From: a virus
Taxonomy: Duplodnaviria; Caudoviricetes
IMG/VR virus record: IMGVR_UViG_3300027749_000034
Length of the DNA: 64,000 nt
Reading direction: 5' to 3' (one strand)
A model generated the notes under the pieces. It did no database searches. It saw only the letters and a list, made by a program, of their open reading frames with translations, and was not told where the DNA came from. Shown here in pieces: positions 3,024-55,440 of this stretch (the stretch's first letter is position 1; every line of letters starts with the position of its first letter). Both the position numbers and the translations under genes were made by a program.

Positions 3024-4174
3024 AAATATTTGAAATAGCAATCAATGGCAAGCGTATGCTGTCTGAAGCCAAGGCTCGTATTGACCATCCTGAAGATATT
3101 ATCTTTGACGAAGGACTTGCTGGAGCACAGCGAGCACTTGATGCAATCACACATGCCGCAGGCAATCCAACCAGCACATCAGTAAAATGGGATGGCACGC
3201 CAGCAATTATATTTGGCCGAGACGAAGGTGGATTTGTATTCACCGACAAGGCCGGATTTGGTGCAAAGAAATATGATGGCATGGCTCGTAGCCAAACAAT
3301 GTTTAGAGACATGATTTATAATCGCAAGCCAGATGAGCCGGGTCGTTTAGACTATGCTGGACATCTTGCCAAGTTGTATCCTATGCTTGAAAAGGCAGTT
3401 CCTAAAAAGTTTCAAGGTTACATCCAAGGCGATGTAATGTGGATGAATCGCCCGCCACTGGACGATGAAGGTAATTTTGTATTCAAACCCAACAAGGTCA
3501 GATATCGTATTCCCAAAGACAGCAACCTTGGCGACACTATTAAACTCAGCACCGCAGGCGTTGTTGTGCATAGCATATTTGAAAGCCGCACAGACGAAGA
3601 ACCTAGAGCAATTGAATCGGTAAAATCTCTTGGATTAACACCCACAGCCAAGTTGTTGATTTTAAACCCAGAAATGAAAATTGAACAGGGCACCACACAT
3701 GCATTAGATGACAGTTATGTGCAGGCCGTGGCTGGATTGATTGCCAAAGGCAAGTCAATTGAAAAGTTTCTCGACCCGTATACCATTGGATCATTGAAGA
3801 TTAGTAATCTTGGTGACTTATGCAAGAGCTACTTGAATTACAAAGCAAGAAAAGGCGACATGGACCTGACCGGAGCCGCCCAGGAGTTTATCAATTGGGT
3901 AAATGATCCAGCACTAAGTAAGTTGACAGAAAACAAAAGACAAAATGTCATTGCACACATTGAAGGCAATCAACCTGCTTACAAAACAATGTGGAAATTG
4001 GTAAATGCACTGGTAGCATTGAAGATGCATATGAAGAGTCAATTAGATTCTCATCCTGGCAGTGATGTTATGGCAGATATAAACGGCGAAACTGGACACG
4101 AAGGATTTGTGTCAGATACTCCACATGGTAAAATTAAATTTGTAAACAGACCGCTGTTTATGAAAGAGGAATAA
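3020..4174 (+). CDS. ligase-like nucleotidyltransferase-fold protein (DUF6267-like)
   Basis: VKWDG (KxDG motif I), QGD and HEGFV motifs resembling RNA/DNA ligase motifs. Confidence 0.65.
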   Translation: MKIFEIAINGKRMLSEAKARIDHPEDIIFDEGLAGAQRALDAITHAAGNPTSTSVKWDGTPAIIFGRDEGGFVFTDKAGFGAKKYDGMARSQTMFRDMIYNRKPDEPGRLDYAGHLAKLYPMLEKAVPKKFQGYIQGDVMWMNRPPLDDEGNFVFKPNKVRYRIPKDSNLGDTIKLSTAGVVVHSIFESRTDEEPRAIESVKSLGLTPTAKLLILNPEMKIEQGTTHALDDSYVQAVAGLIAKGKSIEKFLDPYTIGSLKISNLGDLCKSYLNYKARKGDMDLTGAAQEFINWVNDPALSKLTENKRQNVIAHIEGNQPAYKTMWKLVNALVALKMHMKSQLDSHPGSDVMADINGETGHEGFVSDTPHGKIKFVNRPLFMKEE

Positions 4175-13351: not shown

Positions 13352-15178
13352 ATGGCAGACATTCCAGTTATACCCGGCGTTTCAGTTACCCCAATGGGGA
13401 TACTCAATAGACCAATCAAAGACATCATTTGTGCTATCCTTTTTGGTGGCATCAATAACATGCTCAAAGGAAATTTACTTTGTGTAAATTTAGACTTGGA
13501 AAAATTGTTAGATGAACCAATTGTTGCAGACATAAAAGCCGAGTTGACAGATCTAAAGAATGAACTCAAGGCCATGGAAGAAGCGTCTGGTATCAAAGAT
13601 GTGCTTGGCCGAGTCAATCAGGGCATCGCTGAAGTTCAAAATCTACTGGCACTGGATGGCTTATGTAAAATTCCACTGAAGTGTCCTCCGATACCCGACA
13701 TCCTGAACATGACCATTGACGCAGAGTTTGCCACTGCCAATGCAATTTTGGATGATATTGGTAGATTAGAAAAACCAAAATTATGTATCAATGGTGCTGG
13801 TGGTCTCAATACTGGTTCATACAATCCCAGTAGCATCTTGGGTAGAATACAAAGCAACATTACCAGACTGGGAACTATTCCTGGTCATGAATTAGACATA
13901 TTAAAAAGACAATTGACACGAGTGACTGCTGGACTAAAGGCCAGTCTCAATAGACAGTTGTTTCCAGATTTCAGACACAAGACAGATTTGACAACAGGCA
14001 GGCCATATGCTAAAGGTGGTGCTGGTGTAATACTGGCCAGTGCCGCTGAACAGACCAAACTGAAGGCCAAGATTGCCGCTGACTCAGCATCGCCTGCAGG
14101 CCTACTGGCATGGCAACAGGTAGCAAACATGCCTGGAGCATCTGCCGCGGATATTCAAGCATCATATCCGCCAGGTGACGCCAGTCTAAAAGATGCAGTC
14201 AACATAGCACAGACTCTGGTAGGTGGAATGAAAAAGACTGCCAGTTATCCTTCCACAGCCAATGGAATTATAAATGCAAACATGTGGCCCGGTGTGTTGG
14301 GTCCAGACATATATGCTATGGCAGTACAGGCAATGAGTCCACAGGACCCGCTATTTGTACAACAAGATCCACTGTATGATTATTGCGGTAAGTTCATTGG
14401 ATACAATGAAACAGTTATAACCGGCGACTCTGCATACAAAGGTGGCGACCCAAAGAAAGATGCTGTATTGAATCCACACAAAACAAACTTTGAATTCAAT
14501 TGGATCGCAGATAGACAATGTTGGGCAGTCACTGGCGTACAAAGCGAGCAAGTGGTAAATGGAAGAAAGGACACTTATCTAGATGCAAATCCAGAAATTG
14601 AATTGCATCGAGGGTATAGTCATATTCTAAGTGTGCCAAGTGCTGACATCAGTGGATTCGTTATGAGTGGCGACTATCCAACAGCAACTAGTACGGCTCC
14701 AGAATTTTTTATATGTCGAGTTGGAAACGATCTAAGGCCACTGATTGCCAATGGCGAAATTGTCAAGTTCAACATGGGACTAAGCAGACTTGAGACATCA
14801 GAAGTATTGGACAATGCCAATGGTTGGCTACCAAGTGAAACAGAACATGCGGGTATTGATGGTCCAGAAGGATACAATCGTAGATTAGAAAACCCAATGG
14901 GTACCACATTGTATTTTTCAGTCGAACAACGACAATACTCGGGTACTGTTCCTCCGCTGTACCCAAGCAAGGACATTTGGTGGTATAATCCAACCACTCT
15001 TATAACACAACAGTGGATACCAGATGGCGAGGCCAGTGGTCAATGGGTTGTAGTATCTGATCAGGATAGAAACAATCATTGGTATGGATCAAGTCCTTTG
15101 CAGAGCGATATAAGTGCAAACTATCTGGCCTACAGTAATCGAAATGGTTCAGTTTTTGGCCTATTAAAATTAATTTGA
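13352..15178 (+). CDS. hypothetical (putative virion/baseplate) protein
   Basis: 608-aa ORF next to PAAR/M15; TAAGTA at 13339. Confidence 0.7.
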   Translation: MADIPVIPGVSVTPMGILNRPIKDIICAILFGGINNMLKGNLLCVNLDLEKLLDEPIVADIKAELTDLKNELKAMEEASGIKDVLGRVNQGIAEVQNLLALDGLCKIPLKCPPIPDILNMTIDAEFATANAILDDIGRLEKPKLCINGAGGLNTGSYNPSSILGRIQSNITRLGTIPGHELDILKRQLTRVTAGLKASLNRQLFPDFRHKTDLTTGRPYAKGGAGVILASAAEQTKLKAKIAADSASPAGLLAWQQVANMPGASAADIQASYPPGDASLKDAVNIAQTLVGGMKKTASYPSTANGIINANMWPGVLGPDIYAMAVQAMSPQDPLFVQQDPLYDYCGKFIGYNETVITGDSAYKGGDPKKDAVLNPHKTNFEFNWIADRQCWAVTGVQSEQVVNGRKDTYLDANPEIELHRGYSHILSVPSADISGFVMSGDYPTATSTAPEFFICRVGNDLRPLIANGEIVKFNMGLSRLETSEVLDNANGWLPSETEHAGIDGPEGYNRRLENPMGTTLYFSVEQRQYSGTVPPLYPSKDIWWYNPTTLITQQWIPDGEASGQWVVVSDQDRNNHWYGSSPLQSDISANYLAYSNRNGSVFGLLKLI

Positions 15179-15203
15179 CAAGCCGATCAAATAAGTATAT
15201 ACT
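15175..15203 (+). promoter_or_regulatory. sigma70-type promoter of tmRNA
   Basis: TTGACA-17-TATACT. Confidence 0.85.
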
Positions 15204-15209
15204 GTAAGT

Positions 15210-15500
15210 TATTGCTGTATGAAGCAAAGAGAAAAGTGTTCTGGACGGGGGTGCGAATCCCCCCAGGTCCACCATAAGCACATAGTTGTCCTAGATGAAA
15301 GAAACCTCTTAGGGCTCTAGTGGGGATTGTGTGCTTTTGATGGGCCTGACCTAGATTCGACAGGGCAACAAGTAACAGAGTGGACAGCACGACAGCGATA
15401 GTCGTAAAAACTAAACAAAAGTAACCGCAAACGACTCACAGTTCGCATTAGCGGCCTAACAGCCACTTAGGGTAAGACATACCTCGTAACAGAAACTCAG
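15210..15500 (+). ncRNA. ssrA: tmRNA, circularly permuted two-piece form
   Basis: T-arm plus CAGGTCC-ACCA (ends 15274) precedes the 5' end GGGCCTG (15342) with G3.U; tag ORF ANDSQFALAA*; ends are approximate. Confidence 0.93.
15427..15459 (+). other. tmRNA proteolysis tag reading frame (ANDSQFALAA*)
   Basis: gca aac gac tca cag ttc gca tta gcg gcc taa. Confidence 0.9.
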
Positions 15501-15528
15501 AAAAGGTTGCTTCGGCAACCTTTTTCTT
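15501..15528 (+). terminator. intrinsic terminator
   Basis: AAAAGGTTGC-TTCG-GCAACCTTTTT. Confidence 0.9.
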
Positions 15529-15576
15529 TATAAGTATTTTTATAATACGAACATTATCACACTAAAGAATATATCA

Positions 15577-16072: not shown

Positions 16073-16095
16073 ACTGTATGAAACAGGAGAATCAT

Positions 16096-16599
16096 ATGGA
16101 ATTAGTAGAAAGAGCCAGAATTTTTGCAACAGCGGCCCATACCGCTGTGGCACAATTACGGAAGTACACTAATGAGCCGTACATTGTGCATCCTGCCGAA
16201 GTGGCCGGCATTGTTGCCACAGTTCCCCACACTCCCGAAATGTTAGCGGCCGCTTGGTTGCATGATGTGGTTGAAGACACTGGTGTTACCAACGAAGTGA
16301 TCCGTGCTGAATTTGGCGCCACAGTTGCAGAGTTGGTTGGCTGGTTAACTGATGTCAGCAGGCCCGAACAAGGCAATCGTGCTGTCCGCAAGGCAATAGA
16401 CCGGGCACATACTGCTGGTGCACCTGCTGAAGCACAGACTGTAAAGTTGGCCGACTTGATCTCAAACACCAGAAGCATTGTGGCACAAGATGTTGCCTTT
16501 GCCAAAGTGTACTTGGAAGAAAAGCGGTTGTTGTTGGAAGTGTTGACTCGTGGTGATGCCACATTGATGGCAGAAGCCAGGACCAGTGTGTCTAAATGA
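16096..16599 (+). CDS. HD-domain small alarmone hydrolase-like protein (SpoT/Mesh1 family)
   Basis: AH...RKY..EPYIVHP, WLHDVVEDT, VKLADLISN. Confidence 0.85.
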   Translation: MELVERARIFATAAHTAVAQLRKYTNEPYIVHPAEVAGIVATVPHTPEMLAAAWLHDVVEDTGVTNEVIRAEFGATVAELVGWLTDVSRPEQGNRAVRKAIDRAHTAGAPAEAQTVKLADLISNTRSIVAQDVAFAKVYLEEKRLLLEVLTRGDATLMAEARTSVSK

Positions 16600-26094: not shown

Positions 26095-26098
26095 GGCT

Positions 26099-26272
26099 TG
26101 TTGTAGAAATACAACAAAAATAAAGGCAGATAGTTGTTGACAGGAATGAGTAGATAGCATATACTAGTTGAATACTGTAGCAATACAGCAGAAACAGTTT
26201 GAAAAGTGTTGTAGAAATACAACAAAAGAAAGTTAGAAAACGGTTGACATTACGGCATTGTCCGTATATAAT
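26099..26272 (+). promoter_or_regulatory. tandem operator plus sigma70 promoters (rrn P1/P2-like)
   Basis: Operators 26099-116 and 26207-224; TTGACA-17-TATACT (26137-65) and TTGACA-17-TATAAT (26244-72). Confidence 0.85.
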
Positions 26273-26280
26273 AACCAAAC

Positions 26281-26315
26281 ACTACAGCGAAAGTTGTAGT
26301 GATTGTTCTTTAAAA
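26281..26315 (+). promoter_or_regulatory. boxB-like hairpin plus boxA antitermination site
   Basis: ACTACAGC-GAAA-GTTGTAGT then TGTTCTTTAAAA. Confidence 0.7.
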
Positions 26316-26331: not shown

Positions 26332-26406
26332 GCTCGATTCGTCTATCGGTTAGGACATCTGGTTTTCATCCAGGCAAGAGCGGTTCGATTCCGCTATCGA
26401 GTACCA
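26332..26406 (+). tRNA. tRNA-Glu(TTC)
   Basis: Cloverleaf, loop TT TTC AT, CCA. Confidence 0.95.
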
Positions 26407-26615
26407 TATGCAAGAATACTAAGGTTACCTAGACCACTAGGCGACTGGGATGATGGCAGTGCCGACGGGTGCTGGTCAAGTCCAGGAGCATGAAACAGGC
26501 GCAAGCTGGATTTGCGGTGGACAATCTAGGAGTAATGACCGTGCAGGCCTATACGAGACGTTCGTATATGGTAGACATAGATGCACAATGGTTCCTTTAG
26601 TATTCTTACATATGG
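26404..26615 (+). ncRNA. unknown structured RNA enclosed by 21-bp stem
   Basis: 26404-24 pairs 26595-615 with one C/A mismatch; internal hairpins. Confidence 0.6.
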
Positions 26616-26619
26616 TATT

Positions 26620-26705
26620 GCGAGTATGGTGAAATCTGGTAGACACAAGAGACTTAAAATCTCTCGCCGCAAGGTGTCCCGGTTCGACTCCGGGTACTCG
26701 CACCA
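26620..26705 (+). tRNA. tRNA-Leu(TAA)
   Basis: Type II cloverleaf, loop CT TAA AA, CCA. Confidence 0.96.
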
Positions 26706-27122: not shown

Positions 27123-27347
27123 ATGACATACATCAGTCGAGGAGTTGACATTGATACAGATCAATGTGTACAAAATGTTGGAGGCAATCGATTCAACTTG
27201 GTTTTAATTGCCGCGGCAAGAGCCAGGGAAATTAGTCAAAACAATAGAGAAAGTGTTCGCACAGAACATCTCCATACACCAGTAACTGCATTACTTGAAG
27301 TCCAAGATGGTAAGTTGGGGTATGAAGGAATACGAAAAGTTCGTTAA
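27123..27347 (+). CDS. rpoZ: RNA polymerase omega subunit homologue
   Basis: VGGNRFNLVLIAAARAREI ... PVTALLEVQDGK matches omega signature NRFDLVLVAARRARQ...VIALREIEEG. Confidence 0.85.
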   Translation: MTYISRGVDIDTDQCVQNVGGNRFNLVLIAAARAREISQNNRESVRTEHLHTPVTALLEVQDGKLGYEGIRKVR

Positions 27348-27429: not shown

Positions 27430-27430
27430 G

Positions 27431-27624
27431 ACGTTCCGAGTGTCTTCGGATAGTGTGACCCACACGATGAGAAGTAGTGTGACAACTACGGGTGGTAGTC
27501 TTTGAACCGAAAGGCCGCTGGCAATGCGATAACGGAACCTGTCGGGAAGTGGGTGGAAGCCGTGTGTGATGGTGTTGGGGGTTCCTGGCGCTTGATACGG
27601 TACAATTACCACCGGGGTTCGCAG
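27431..27624 (+). ncRNA. unknown pseudoknotted structured RNA
   Basis: GTTCCG/CGGAAC (27433/27533) crosses GGTGGTA/TACCACC (27491/27607); GNRA hairpins. Confidence 0.5.
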
Positions 27625-27696
27625 AGCATATTAAAACACACTCTAACCGCAAGGTGACAAGTGAGCTCATGTTCATGAAGTGTGTTTCAATATGTT
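27625..27696 (+). ncRNA. long-stem hairpin cassette
   Basis: 18-bp stem AGCATATTAAAACACACT/AGTGTGTTTCAATATGTT with one A/C mismatch. Confidence 0.55.
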
Positions 27697-27700
27697 TTTC

Positions 27701-27776
27701 GGGGGTGTAGCTCATTTGGGAGAGCGCCTGCTTTGCAAGCAGGATGTAGCAAGTTCGATCCTTGTCACCTCCACCA
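27701..27776 (+). tRNA. tRNA-Ala(TGC)
   Basis: GGGGGTG acceptor with G3.U70, loop TT TGC AA. Confidence 0.96.
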
Positions 27777-28902: not shown

Positions 28903-29103
28903 AGTACCCCGGGCACCTCTGCCCGTTATACAAGAGGGGGATATTAGCAAACCCATAGACGCTACGGTGCATTGGATCTACCGCAAGGCCCATTTACGGC
29001 GACTTGAGAAATCACAAAGGCAGGAACTGTACTGTCTAAATAGAAAAATAGTTGGACGGGGTAACCACCCAGTCTGGGGCTCTTGTGGTGAGAGTAGCCA
29101 GAC
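28903..29103 (+). ncRNA. unknown structured RNA
   Basis: Nested hairpins GTCTGG/CCAGAC, GTCTAA/TTGGAC, GGGT/ACCC, CC-GCAA-GG. Confidence 0.45.
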
Positions 29104-29233
29104 ACTTTATAAAAGCCGTTTGAGTAGCTACAATGGAACACCGAAATACTTCTCAATACTAGTCAGTAGAAGGACCGGCCATGAAGAGTAGGGCTACCGC
29201 GAATTCAAGCGTCACAGACGGCCTCTATAAAGT
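29104..29233 (+). ncRNA. long-stem-enclosed structured RNA
   Basis: 18-bp closing stem 29104-21/29216-33 with A/C mismatches, abutting tRNA-Gly. Confidence 0.5.
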
Positions 29234-39098: not shown

Positions 39099-39183
39099 GG
39101 AGAAGAAGCATCAATGGTGATGCAGTGGACTGTAAATCCGCCGCCTTCGGGCACGACTGGTTCGATCCCAGTATTCTCCACCA
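39099..39183 (+). tRNA. tRNA-Tyr(GTA)
   Basis: Type II cloverleaf, loop CT GTA AA. Confidence 0.95.
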
Positions 39184-51811: not shown

Positions 51812-51999
51812 TTGTAGCATTCGCAAATAAAATTGGCCAGGCGCATGGTAAGTTTTTTACATGGCTTGGTCGTAAAGCAGAGTCCAATCCTTGGTGGGCA
51901 GTAGCCCTAACCTTCTGGGCATTGTATGAGATCGTTGAACATATTGCTGGACCAATTCTAGCCGTGTTAGCCGCAACAGGACATGTGAGTATACACTAA
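51808..51999 (+). CDS. small membrane protein
   Basis: Hydrophobic ORF, ATGA overlap. Confidence 0.6.
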   Translation: MIVAFANKIGQAHGKFFTWLGRKAESNPWWAVALTFWALYEIVEHIAGPILAVLAATGHVSIH

Positions 52000-52379
52000 T
52001 GGCATATTCAGAAAAAGTAATTGACCATTACGAGAATCCCAGGAATGTTGGCTCATTTGCAAAAGATGATACTGATGTTGGCACTGGCATGGTAGGTGCA
52101 CCAGCCTGCGGTGATGTGATGAAATTACAGATCAAAGTAGAAGATGGAATAATCACTGATGCAAAATTCAAAACATACGGCTGTGGTTCAGCTATTGCAT
52201 CAAGTAGTCTTATAACTGAAATGGTCAAGGGCATGACATTGGATGATGCCTCCAAGATTAAAAATAGTGAGATTGCCGAAGAGCTGGCGCTACCACCAGT
52301 GAAAATTCATTGCAGTATCTTGGCTGAAGATGCCATCAAGGCCGCTGTTGCCGACTATAAGGCCAAACATGCCAACTAG
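51999..52379 (+). CDS. iscU: Fe-S cluster scaffold IscU
   Basis: YSEKVIDHYENPRN, APACGDVM, GCGSAIAS, LPPVKIHCS. Confidence 0.96.
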   Translation: MAYSEKVIDHYENPRNVGSFAKDDTDVGTGMVGAPACGDVMKLQIKVEDGIITDAKFKTYGCGSAIASSSLITEMVKGMTLDDASKIKNSEIAEELALPPVKIHCSILAEDAIKAAVADYKAKHAN

Positions 52380-53160
52380 AATTTTAATCATGGGCCTTCC
52401 GGGCTCGGGCAAAACCACATTGGCACAGCATGTATTAGATCACTTGCAAGCTGAAAAGAAAACAGTAATGTGGCTCAATGCCGACGATGTTCGTAAAAAA
52501 TACAACGATTGGGATTTCAGTCATGAAGGCCGTATTCGTCAAAGTCTGCGTATGCGAGAACTTGCAGACAGTTATGATACCGATTTTGTAATTTGTGACT
52601 TTGTTGCACCCTTGGTTGAAATGCGTAACAACTTCAAAGCAGACTGGACCATTTGGGTAGATACCATTCGCGAAGGTCGTTATGCAGATACCAATGCCAT
52701 GTTTGTAGAACCCGAAGTTTATGACTTCCGAGTGACTGTGCAAAAAGCAGAAACATGGGGCGAGTTTATTGCAGGACACATACTGGACAATCGTCGTAGG
52801 CCTGTGTTTGATTGGAAGAAAGAAACAGTACAAATGCTGGGCCGTTGGCAACCATGGCATGATGGTCATCGTGCGTTGTTTGAACGCCTGCTGGCTCGTA
52901 CTGGTCAAGTGATCATTCAAGTGCGTGATGTGCAAGGCTGGCAAGGCAGTAACCCATTTGAAGTGGCCAAAGTCAAAAGCTTTATCAAGCGTGATTTAGA
53001 TCCATTATATCAGGGTCAATATGAAATACAAGTTGTTCCTAACATTGTACACATTGGTTGGGGTCGTGGAGTAGGCTATACTGCCGGTGAAGAAACATTT
53101 GATAACGCAGTAACAGATATCAGTGCCACAAAAATTCGTAAGGAATTAGGCCTTGAGTAG
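52369..53160 (+). CDS. cysC: adenylylsulfate-kinase-like domain fused to cytidylyltransferase-like (HIGH) domain
   Basis: [20 protein letters not shown]; then [10 protein letters not shown]. Confidence 0.75.
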
Positions 53161-53171
53161 CATGGGGAAAA

Positions 53172-53492
53172 ATGATAACATTGACTGAGCCAGCAAAGCA
53201 CAAGGTCCAAAGCATGTTGAGCCGTAGAGGCCACGGACTGGGCATTAGACTTGGAGTGAAAACTACCGGTTGCTCTGGGCTTGCTTATGTGTTAGAATAT
53301 GTAGACAGTCAGGCCACAGGGGATCAATGTTTTGACTGTGAAGGATGTATGATTTTTATGGATCCAAAGAGTAGCGTATATCTAAGCGGGTTGACTGTGG
53401 ACTATGTACGCAAAGGGCTAAATGAAGGATTTGAATTCATTAACCCCAACGAGAAAGACCGCTGTGGATGCGGTGAAAGTTTTAGAGTCTAA
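53172..53492 (+). CDS. iscA: Fe-S cluster carrier IscA
   Basis: [23 protein letters not shown]. Confidence 0.95.
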
Positions 53493-53503
53493 AGGAGACT
53501 ATT

Positions 53504-53821
53504 ATGAAAAAGCTAATTGCAATTTTATTGTTGACATTGACAGCTACTACTGCCATGGCACAACATCATGGTGGCGGCTACTATCGAGGTGGTGGTTATC
53601 GTGGCGGCTGGGTTGCACCTGCCTTGATTGGTGGTGTCATTGGATATGGTCTAAGCCGTCCCTACTACGAACCCTACTACGCACCGCCTCCGGTGTACTA
53701 CGCACCTCAGCCACCGGTGTACTACACACAACCTGCGCCAATGGTACAGTCCAACTGTGTTCGTTACATCATTCAAAATGAACAAGGCCAGACAGTACGG
53801 GAAGAAACTCGTTGCAATTAA
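53504..53821 (+). CDS. secreted Gly/Tyr/Pro-rich small protein
   Basis: Signal peptide; YY.PPPVYY repeats. Confidence 0.7.
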   Translation: MKKLIAILLLTLTATTAMAQHHGGGYYRGGGYRGGWVAPALIGGVIGYGLSRPYYEPYYAPPPVYYAPQPPVYYTQPAPMVQSNCVRYIIQNEQGQTVREETRCN

Positions 53822-53846
53822 CTGACAATTCAGCTATACTAGTTGA

Positions 53847-54104
53847 ATGCAAAAGTTAAATGAAATTACCGACCGTGAAACCCTTTTAAGTTATCTCGAT
53901 CCTGCGGATTGGGATAACTTTTCTACAGCATGGTACAATGGACTAGATCCATTCAAAGAATATCCCGACTCCTTGATTTTAATGGCCAATGCAGTACTAA
54001 CACATTGGGAAGTTCCATTGTATGCAGTTGATGTCAGCTGGGACGAAGAGCTAGGTTGCTTCATTTGGCACTTTGGCAAAAACACCAGTCCTGACTATCC
54101 ATAA
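53847..54104 (+). CDS. hypothetical protein
   Basis: 85-aa ORF. Confidence 0.6.
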   Translation: MQKLNEITDRETLLSYLDPADWDNFSTAWYNGLDPFKEYPDSLILMANAVLTHWEVPLYAVDVSWDEELGCFIWHFGKNTSPDYP

Positions 54105-54126
54105 TTAATAGAACAGGAGATCATGC

Positions 54127-54840
54127 ATGTACTTTAATGATGGAAGCTTACTAGTTCCAGCAGAGCCACAGTGGACCAGATATGACGGTGTTAAAATGGC
54201 ACCGTTGATTGTACCCGATGGCGCAGGACCATGGGCCTTACGATATATTTGGTGCAGGCATACCGAAAATAACAAAGACTTTGTTGGCAATTACTTTGCC
54301 GCAAAATCTGATCAAGAAAAAGGAAAGGCCGGATTAAATTTGCGTAAGCGTACAGCCTACATGCAAGAACATTGGGATCCTCACAATGAGTTGATCAACA
54401 CAAGCCGAGACAATGGAAATATGATCTGGCGTGTAAAAGTACATAACCCAATTGCAGACAGCATTGACTATGTTGAATGTTGGCGCAGTCCTGAAGTGCT
54501 ATCGCAGGCATTCAGTGATTTAATGCCTGGCGCAGAATTAAAAATCAAAGACAATGTTGTTCGTACATCAACCAATCAGCAAACACTAAGAAACAATCTG
54601 TACAAGGAAGGTTTTGAAATTAGACGCTGGGTTGATCCTGTAACAAATTGGCCCACTATTAATCCAGGACTGGCCATGTACTTCTACTGGAACTTTGTGC
54701 AGAAGCATTGGCTAAAAGCAAATTGTAGGGTGAATACAATGTGGCGTGTGCATTTGAATCCATGGAGAGGCTTGTACCCAGAGCTTTATCCAATTGACGA
54801 CATGCTCGTTAAGTTAAAAGAAAATACAAGTTATCTATAA
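54127..54840 (+). CDS. hypothetical protein
   Basis: 237-aa ORF, AGGAG RBS. Confidence 0.75.
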   Translation: MYFNDGSLLVPAEPQWTRYDGVKMAPLIVPDGAGPWALRYIWCRHTENNKDFVGNYFAAKSDQEKGKAGLNLRKRTAYMQEHWDPHNELINTSRDNGNMIWRVKVHNPIADSIDYVECWRSPEVLSQAFSDLMPGAELKIKDNVVRTSTNQQTLRNNLYKEGFEIRRWVDPVTNWPTINPGLAMYFYWNFVQKHWLKANCRVNTMWRVHLNPWRGLYPELYPIDDMLVKLKENTSYL

Positions 54841-54849
54841 AGGAAAATT

Positions 54850-55440
54850 ATGAGTTTAGTGCCAATCGTAGTAGAGAAGACCGGAGCAGGTGAGCGCAGT
54901 TACGACATTTACAGTCGTTTACTCAAAGAGCGAATTGTATTGCTTGAAGGCGAAGTACATGACCAAATGGCCAATCTGATTGTTGCCCAGTTGCTGTTCT
55001 TAGAAGCAGACAACCCAGAAAAAGAAATCAATCTTTTTATTAACAGCCCTGGTGGAAGCATTACAGCAGGCATGGCAATCTACGACACAATGCAATATAT
55101 CAAAAGCCCTGTAAGCACCATTGTCATGGGTCAAGCATGTAGCATGGGCAGTTTCTTAGCGCAGTCTGGTCAAGCAGGTCGACGGTTTGTATTGCCCAAT
55201 GCAAGACACATGATCCACCAACCTTCAGGTGGCACTCGTGGCATGGTAAGTGATATTGAAATCAGTTACAATGAAATTGTATTTTGGAAAAAACGACTAA
55301 CAGAGTTATATGTCAAGCATAACTCAGCTGGTAAAACATATCCACAGTTTGAAAAAGACATGGATCGAGATACATTCATGAGCGCCGAAGAAGCTGTTGC
55401 ATACGGCTTGGCCGACGGTATCATGACAAAACGCCCATGA
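54850..55440 (+). CDS. clpP: ATP-dependent Clp protease proteolytic subunit
   Basis: [23 protein letters not shown] (Ser), MIHQP (His), DRD. Confidence 0.96.

What the first reader, a model, noticed from the sequence alone, without database searches (positions are those of the whole stretch)
26404..26615. 212-nt multibranched RNA between tRNA-Glu and tRNA-Leu
Seen: 21-bp closing stem overlapping the tRNA-Glu CCA; inner helix TTAC-CTAGA-CCAC / GTGG-TCTAG-GTAA; GC-GCAA-GC and TACGA/TCGTA hairpins; GC-richer than the flanks; no ORF with an RBS. Inference: ornate ncRNA (ribozyme-like or protein scaffold). Established: large unexplained RNAs such as GOLLD and ROOL are tRNA-array associated, but I cannot match this one to a family by eye.
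Basis: partly seen in the sequence, partly recalled or inferred. Interest (0 to 1): 0.68.

Follow-up and report, generated by a model that had tools for sequence, protein, structure and literature searches.

The report
Kissing-loop RNA of lake phages
The gap between two tRNA genes of an uncultured freshwater giant phage holds a real, roughly 200-base folded RNA that matches no catalogued RNA family; about 180 variants occur in related phages and matched mutations support a loop-to-loop contact in its fold, but its job is unknown.

Summary
Observation confirmed. 26404-26615 is one copy of a structured non-coding RNA family of uncultured freshwater phages. I found about 180 distinct variants in IMG/VR and metagenomes (aligned sample: median identity 50%), one copy per large genome. 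It has no match in Rfam 15, the cultured phages or the cellular genomes searched. Compensatory changes support a long closing stem, two three-way junctions with near-invariant bases, and two fixed-length arms ending in GACG-type loops. The loops most likely pair through two C-G pairs: the only three variants that alter one loop alter the other to restore pairing (UG/CA, CA/UG, GC/GC). It is a discrete gene: about half the copies lie by tRNAs, and 33 of 174 start at their own sigma-70 promoter. A close relative carries a 60%-identical allele in the same slot. Best reading (about 50%, inferred): a stable trans-acting RNA recognised by its shape, as decoy or scaffold for a host protein or complex. 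No ribozyme signature was found, and it is not GOLLD or ROOL. This scan already reported what appears to be the same family on other DNA (e1-5319954, probably e1-5380848).

The parts
26404..26615 (+). Structured ncRNA gene, whole unit (mature ends inferred to lie within 26407-26619)
   Evidence: Covariance model score 209 bits (the window is in the training set); covariation
26404..26424 (+). P1 closing stem, 5' strand (first 3 nt are the tRNA-Glu CCA; ends in near-invariant GG 26423-26424)
   Evidence: sequence varies wholesale with compensation, and the stem is short or absent in a minority of members
26594..26615 (+). P1 closing stem, 3' strand (starts with near-invariant CC)
26425..26438 (+). 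P2 5' strand (P2a, P2b, P2c); fixed length in 173 of 174 members; top pair is an invariant U.G
26516..26535 (+). P2 3' strand with 4-nt and 2-nt bulges, ending in the invariant GUAA
26439..26440 (+). Junction 2, invariant unpaired A-G of the UAGG word
   Evidence: 80 of 80 aligned members; the word was a search term in two of the scans
26441..26489 (+). P3 arm: interrupted helix of fixed length and freely varying sequence
26464..26467 (+). Loop L3, GACG tetraloop; its C-G (26466-26467) is the predicted kissing partner of L6
   Evidence: GACG 129, GCCG 42 of 174; used as a search term only, after this count
26490..26496 (+). Junction 2 purine-rich strand (A-N-G-A-A near-invariant)
26498..26507 (+).
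   Evidence: region is 28-59 nt across members
26536..26539 (+). Junction 1: single unpaired U, then P5a 5' strand pairing with 26591-26593
   Evidence: P5a covaries: GAC/GUU, GUG/CAY, GAU/RUU, GUU/AAU (the script required pairing when picking the partner)
26540..26593 (+). P5/P6 arm with a 9-nt bulge
26557..26561 (+). Loop L6, GACGU; its C-G (26559-26560) is the predicted kissing partner of L3
   Evidence: GACG in 170 of 172 scorable members; variants covary with L3
26332..26406 (+). tRNA-Glu(UUC), upstream neighbour
26620..26705 (+). tRNA-Leu(UAA), downstream neighbour
26244..26272 (+). Perfect sigma-70 consensus promoter likely to drive the operon (second one at 26137-26165)
   Evidence: 12 of 12 and 11 of 12 matches; consensus match only
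26280..26315 (+). Leader hairpin and boxA-like word, resembling an rRNA-operon antitermination leader
   Evidence: sequence; likeness to boxA from my own knowledge and e1-5375635

Best explanation
A stand-alone phage RNA gene. It is transcribed from sigma-70-type promoters, either inside tRNA operons or on its own. Here it is probably cut out of the tRNA precursor by host enzymes (RNase P at the tRNA-Leu 5' end; RNase III or RNase E at the closing stem). It folds into a compact, closed shape: two three-way junctions send out two arms of fixed length whose GACG-type loops meet through two C-G pairs. The stem P1 is a clamp or processing handle and P4 is a free insertion site. It most likely acts in trans by being recognised as a shape, as a decoy or scaffold for a host RNA-binding protein or complex of the translation or stable-RNA machinery during takeover. 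Shown by comparison: gene status, secondary structure, fixed arm lengths. Well supported: the L3-L6 kiss. Inferred: processing route, that the kiss is within one molecule, the decoy role and the class of target.
For: About 180 distinct members (174 tabulated, plus L509, L511, L518, L542, L543); median pairwise identity 0.50 in the 80-member alignment. Covariation in every variable helix. Loop covariation in three divergent members only 48-54% alike where compared: L401 has L3 GAUG with L6 GACA; L543 has the reciprocal L3 GACA with L6 GAUG; L404 has GC in both loops. No member breaks the pairing. The MoMuSV GACG loop and guanidine-II ACGR loops are precedents for a two-pair C-G kiss (PMC7357161). 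Arm lengths are tight (L3 to junction 18-22 nt, sd 1.1; junction to L6 18-23 nt bar one insertion) while P4 is free. In 33 members the -10 box ends exactly 30 nt before the core GG, which puts the start site at about the 5' end of P1. One copy in each of 22 large contigs and in three large genomes picked by protein markers alone. A close relative with 96% identical flank carries a 60% identical allele in the same slot, so the function is kept while the sequence is swapped. No conserved variable single strand that could act as a guide or antisense region, no consistent downstream gene. A lake RNA library holds a 100% identical 81-nt piece (26426-26506, depth 171).
Against: No binding partner is identified and no protein gene co-travels (best family 29 of 174 loci, scattered offsets). 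Invariant junction purines fit a catalytic or ligand pocket just as well. The kiss rests on three variant sequences and could be between molecules. P2a has no double-sided change and two tabulated members break it (GGUCA). Expression is only weakly shown: contigs cannot give level, strand or ends, DNA may be present in RNA libraries, and only one of four runs covered the core well. Conservation of several words is partly a result of my search patterns.
Confidence: 0.5

Rival explanations
1. RNA-only oligomer: L3 of one molecule pairs with L6 of the next, building rings or cages, as phi29 pRNA, ROOL and GOLLD do.
For: The reciprocal UG/CA and CA/UG variants exclude L3-L3 and L6-L6 pairing but fit head-to-tail pairing equally well. 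ROOL and GOLLD share the tRNA-island context and use kissing loops between chains (PMC12286853); pRNA oligomerises head to tail (PMC7357161).
Against: Only two pairs, which are easier to form when tethered in one chain; the RNA is a third to a quarter the size of ROOL or GOLLD; no link to packaging genes was seen in the neighbourhoods. This reading describes assembly and could coexist with the decoy role.
Confidence: 0.14
2. A new ribozyme class (self-cleaving, ligating, or acting on tRNA precursors).
For: Invariant unpaired purines at junction 2; two three-way junctions plus a kissing loop recall the VS ribozyme (my own knowledge); phage theta ribozymes sit at tRNA 3' ends (PMC10879173).
Against: No hammerhead, RNase P, or group I words; no further pseudoknot in the covariation scan; many copies are their own transcription unit far from tRNAs and need no self-processing.
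Confidence: 0.13
3. A ligand-binding RNA acting as a sponge or sensor, like the guanidine-II riboswitch with its two kissing ACGR loops, or binding a nucleotide alarmone.
For: L6 reads G-ACG-N, close to the guanidine-II loop; the phage also carries an HD-domain hydrolase and an RNA polymerase omega homologue.
Against: L3 is GCCG in 42 members, L6 often ends in U and lacks the fixed G-C closing pair, and variants lose ACG altogether; there is no expression platform or consistent downstream gene.
Confidence: 0.1
4. A cis-acting processing or stabilising element for the neighbouring tRNAs.
For: It fills the gap between two tRNAs exactly, and P1 pairs with the upstream CCA; a tRNA follows directly in 48 members.
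Against: About half the members have no tRNA nearby, many have their own promoter, and the conserved part is the inner core, not the tRNA-touching ends.
Confidence: 0.08
5. A selfish or neutral passenger RNA.
For: It sits in different slots in different phages and alleles are exchanged.
Against: Single copy per genome (one tandem pair in L162), no decayed copies seen, no mobility enzyme beside it, strong structural constraint.
Confidence: 0.05

Closest known systems
Phage T4 RNAC and RNAD (species 1 and 2 RNA)
   Same: Small stable RNAs of unknown role transcribed from a phage tRNA region (PMC3014915, PMC9697503).
   Different: 139 and 119 nt, different fold and words; neither family model matches them.
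GOLLD and ROOL RNAs
   Same: Ornate phage RNAs of unknown function, often near tRNA islands, with kissing loops (PMC12286853, PMC5737381).
   Different: About 660 to over 800 nt with several pseudoknots, against about 175 nt of core here; no Rfam hit even at E<10.
MoMuLV/MoMuSV GACG tetraloop kissing motif
   Same: L3 is the same GACG tetraloop and the predicted contact is the same two C-G pairs (PMC7357161, PMC516450).
   Different: A motif only: there it dimerises retroviral genomes through like loops; here variants show pairing of two unlike loops in a phage RNA gene.
Guanidine-II (mini-ykkC) riboswitch
   Same: Two hairpins whose ACG-containing loops kiss through tandem C-G pairs (PMC7357161).
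   Different: Loops are not fixed ACGR, they sit on arms of two junctions in a 200-nt RNA, and there is no regulated downstream gene.
Theta (HDV-like) ribozymes of gut phages
   Same: Can lie directly at a phage tRNA 3' end (PMC10879173).
   Different: No nested double pseudoknot was seen, the RNA is much longer, and most copies do not follow a tRNA.

Membership tests
GOLLD / ROOL | Match to the Rfam covariance models | tested here: not met
   no hit for the window or for diverged members
GOLLD / ROOL | Length of several hundred nt with multiple pseudoknots | tested here: not met
   core 157-221 nt; the covariation scan shows only nested helices
GOLLD / ROOL | Encoded by phages, often near tRNAs | tested here: met
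   90 of 174 members have a tRNA nearby
GOLLD / ROOL | Forms RNA-only multimers | not testable with these tools
   needs biophysics or cryo-EM
RNase P RNA | P4 pseudoknot with CR-I and CR-V sequences | tested here: not met
   words absent; no Rfam hit
Small self-cleaving ribozymes (hammerhead, HDV/theta and others in Rfam) | Catalytic core consensus and topology | tested here: not met
   Rfam at E<10; hammerhead words absent; no second pseudoknot. No dedicated theta descriptor was run.
Small self-cleaving ribozymes (hammerhead, HDV/theta and others in Rfam) | Self-cleavage activity | not testable with these tools
   needs a transcription assay
Group I intron | P7 core elements R and S, flanking exons | tested here: not met
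   both neighbouring tRNAs are intact
6S RNA | Long hairpin with a central open bubble; Rfam match | tested here: not met
   both junctions are tightly paired three-way junctions; no Rfam hit
Y RNA / YrlA | Ro-binding helix, tRNA-like domain, Ro (TROVE) partner gene | tested here: not met
   words absent; no TROVE in 5 carrier genomes while the control rang in 2
SRP RNA | S-domain helix 8 motif; kissing loops on one Alu junction | tested here: not met
   motif absent; the kissing loops here come from two different junctions
CsrB/RsmZ-type sponge | Several GGA motifs in hairpin loops | tested here: not met
   150 of 174 members have none in a predicted apical loop
Guanidine-II riboswitch | Two ACGR tetraloops | tested here: not met
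   L3 GACG or GCCG tetraloop, L6 GACGN pentaloop
Guanidine-II riboswitch | Loop-loop pairing through tandem C-G pairs | tested here: met
   inferred from three compensatory variants
Guanidine-II riboswitch | Position in the 5' leader of a guanidine-related gene | tested here: not met
   followed by tRNAs, new promoters or unrelated small ORFs
T4 RNAC / RNAD | Sequence or structure homology | tested here: not met

The most novel reading that the evidence does not exclude
The RNA founds a new functional class: either a new ribozyme whose active site is one of the invariant junctions, or an RNA-only structural mimic that freshwater phages use to neutralise a host defence or stringent-response factor, with allele swapping reflecting a host-phage arms race.
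Probability: 0.25. Interest if true: 0.88.

Novelty: new variant of a known kind. Interest (0 to 1): 0.63.

Why it matters
Phage tRNA regions have carried stable RNAs of unknown role since T4 RNAC and RNAD, and GOLLD and ROOL remain without a function. This family is small enough (about 175-nt core) to synthesise, probe and solve, has about 180 natural variants, and comes with a specific testable tertiary contact. It is kept as a single copy across phages whose marker protein is only 38-53% identical to the window's, in both 173-kb and 350-kb genomes, so it probably does something these lake phages need. It would also be a natural use of the two-pair GACG kiss outside retroviruses and guanidine-II riboswitches. 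The limit is that no cultured carrier was found.

Tried and rejected
Rfam at gathering score and at E<10 on the window, and on 22 homologue loci: only tRNAs and tmRNA. BLASTN of three alleles against 50,697 phage records: only chance 24-31-nt hits. Pattern scan of GTDB genomes: 15 matches, none resembling the family on inspection or by the model (one scored 18 bits, E 0.019, in a 146-nt AT-rich stretch, taken as chance). Model search of 151 genomes of one phylum (centred on an alphaproteobacterial MAG) and 4 others: none; this is 'not found in those searched' under strict filters. Cultured jumbo phages Phosso, Atu_ph07, XbC2, RsoM2USA, XacN1, PA5oct, A4 and T4, and four 415-578-kb IMG/VR phages: none with either model. 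One pattern was mis-specified and gave nothing useful. A scan for more loop variants was swamped by chance hits and gave three new members, none a new compensatory pair; L511 keeps C-G in both loops. A broader structural model could not be calibrated, so a sequence-only one was used. My two measures of P1 length disagree (114 of 174 with at least 15 pairs ungapped; 134 of 165 with at least 19 pairs by a permissive gapped method that over-extends). Runs X5, X7 and X8 barely or did not cover the core, which shows nothing either way. Literature searches found no description of this RNA; the supplements of Fremin 2023 (PMC10690425; candidates up to 151 nt) and Weinberg 2017 (PMC5737381) were not held, so a partial model there cannot be excluded. 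No whole genome is held for the window.

Full report
Setting. The window is part of a phage genome with 27 tRNAs called by ARAGORN and a permuted, betaproteobacterial-type tmRNA. Its exonuclease is 46-49% identical to those of cultured jumbo phages such as Atu_ph07 and 99% identical to one on a 285-kb IMG/VR contig. Sequencing runs that hold the stretch are lake and freshwater samples where labelled. The host is not known; a betaproteobacterium is a guess from the tmRNA.

Observation. The element fills the gap between tRNA-Glu (ends 26406) and tRNA-Leu (starts 26620), downstream of two consensus sigma-70 promoters and a boxA-like leader. It folds better than all 200 shuffles (z = -4.46). Rfam has no match.

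Homologues. A pattern from the inner helix found nine IMG/VR loci 88-97% identical over the core, with unrelated closing stems. A syntenic phage found through the neighbouring omega gene carries a diverged allele in the same Glu-Leu slot: the flank is 96% identical, the core 60%. Words shared by the two alleles guided further scans and a covariance model confirmed the hits. The total is 174 distinct tabulated members plus five found later. An 80-member alignment has median pairwise identity 0.50. Each of 22 large carrier contigs has one copy, including complete 173-kb and 350-kb genomes whose exonucleases are 38-53% identical to the window's where tested. Three large genomes chosen by protein markers alone also had one copy each. 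It was not found in eight cultured phages, four larger uncultured phages, or the cellular genomes searched.

Structure. P1 closes the RNA. Junction 1 joins P1, P2 and P5 with one unpaired U. Junction 2 joins P2, P3 and P4 through the conserved UAGG and A-N-G-A-A strands. On 34 sequences, 33 of 47 pairs show double-sided changes, 0 of 500 shuffles match this, and slid controls fall to 41-47% paired; relatedness inflates such counts, but the top-ranked column pairs of an unbiased covariation scan on 80 sequences are the modelled helices. P2a is the weak point: it is almost invariant and two tabulated members break one pair. The P2 strand is 19 nt in 173 of 174 members, and the arms to loops L3 and L6 vary by only a few bases, whereas the P4 region ranges from 28 to 59 nt.

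The kiss. L3 is GACG (129) or GCCG (42); L6 begins GACG in 170 of 172 scorable members. L6 was a search term in several scans, but it is equally conserved among members from the scan that did not use it. Only three members lose C-G in either loop, and each loses it in both: L401 has UG in L3 and CA in L6, L543 has CA and UG, L404 has GC and GC. L401 is 48% and 54% alike to the other two and its change is the reverse of L543's, so these look like separate events; no tree was built. Each restores two Watson-Crick pairs between L3 and L6, and the first two cannot pair like with like. A two-pair C-G kiss is known for the MoMuSV GACG loop and the guanidine-II riboswitch (PMC7357161). Whether it is within one molecule or head to tail between molecules cannot be told from sequence.

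Gene status and expression. Ninety members have a tRNA nearby; 27 follow a tRNA directly and 48 precede one. Ninety have a promoter consensus within 140 nt, and in 33 the -10 box ends exactly 30 nt before the core, which places the start at about the 5' end of P1. No protein family travels with it and it is not coding. One lake RNA library holds an identical 81-nt piece at depth 171 and covers the core and the tRNAs but not two nearby ORFs. These are contigs, which cannot show level, strand or ends, so this is a weak hint only.

Mechanism. Processing is inferred from general knowledge: RNase P cutting before tRNA-Leu frees the 3' end, and the roughly 22-bp P1, behind an rRNA-style leader, resembles an RNase III processing stem. 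Members with a short P1 suggest that the core is the working part. Conservation of shape and junction bases, with no guide-like strand, no target gene and no catalytic signature, fits best a trans-acting RNA bound as a shape by a host protein or complex (0.5). Rivals: RNA-only oligomer (0.14), new ribozyme (0.13), ligand sponge (0.10), cis processing element (0.08), passenger (0.05).

Comparison and novelty. It works in the same setting as T4 RNAC and RNAD (roles unknown, PMC3014915, PMC9697503) and GOLLD and ROOL (PMC12286853), but fails the membership tests for these and for RNase P, 6S, Y RNA, SRP, Csr sponges, guanidine-II and the Rfam ribozymes. No paper describing it was found, with the caveat that two large motif catalogues could not be searched at sequence level. 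Earlier agents of this scan reported what appears to be the same family on other genomes; those notes are not independent support. What I tested here is the family's breadth, the compensatory evidence for the kiss, the promoter spacing and the allele swap. Verdict: a real, apparently undescribed RNA family of a known broad kind, function unknown; interest 0.63.

Noticed in passing
window 27430-27640: Second structured spacer RNA after tRNA-Met; 97% identical in L001-L004 and 90% over 123 nt in L033/L054 between other tRNAs; no Rfam hit.
   Followed up: partly
window 28903-29102 and 29103-29233: Two more candidate structured RNAs between tRNA-Pro and tRNA-Gly, with homologues in L001, L006-L008 and L054 in other tRNA contexts; no Rfam hit.
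   Followed up: partly
window 27620-27701: Long hairpin with a 23-nt arm before tRNA-Ala; a relative in run X8 has 194 other letters in place of its inner 55, suggesting a cargo slot.
   Followed up: no
window 27123-27347: RNA polymerase omega-like gene inside the tRNA array (Pfam RNA_pol_Rpb6, E 1e-9); 10 IMG/VR loci, none in cultured phages.
   Followed up: partly
window 16078-16599: HD_4 domain protein, SpoT/Mesh1-like by family; with omega and the boxA-like leader it may counter the stringent response.
   Followed up: partly
window 15161-15550: Circularly permuted two-piece tmRNA of the betaproteobacterial type, tag ANDSQFALAA.
   Followed up: no
window 26096-26227: Three copies of a 21-nt hairpin-forming repeat interleaved with the tandem promoters.
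   Followed up: no
L012:6150-6250; also L017, L023, L104, L123: A conserved, roughly 90-nt structured RNA lies between the promoter and this RNA in many stand-alone copies; no Rfam hit at gathering score.
   Followed up: partly
L162:2548-2755 and 3341-3539: Two diverged tandem copies of the family in one contig, the only duplication seen.
   Followed up: partly
L313, L364, L365, L392, L418, directly downstream of the RNA: A recurring small element beginning with a CUGAYGUAAGC word follows the RNA in several phages.
   Followed up: no
window 39099-39180: Rfam tRNA match (35 bits) not called by ARAGORN: a degenerate or tRNA-like gene.
   Followed up: no
window 51999-55440: ORFs that look like IscU and IscA/HesB by eye, and a ClpP (Pfam).
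   Followed up: partly
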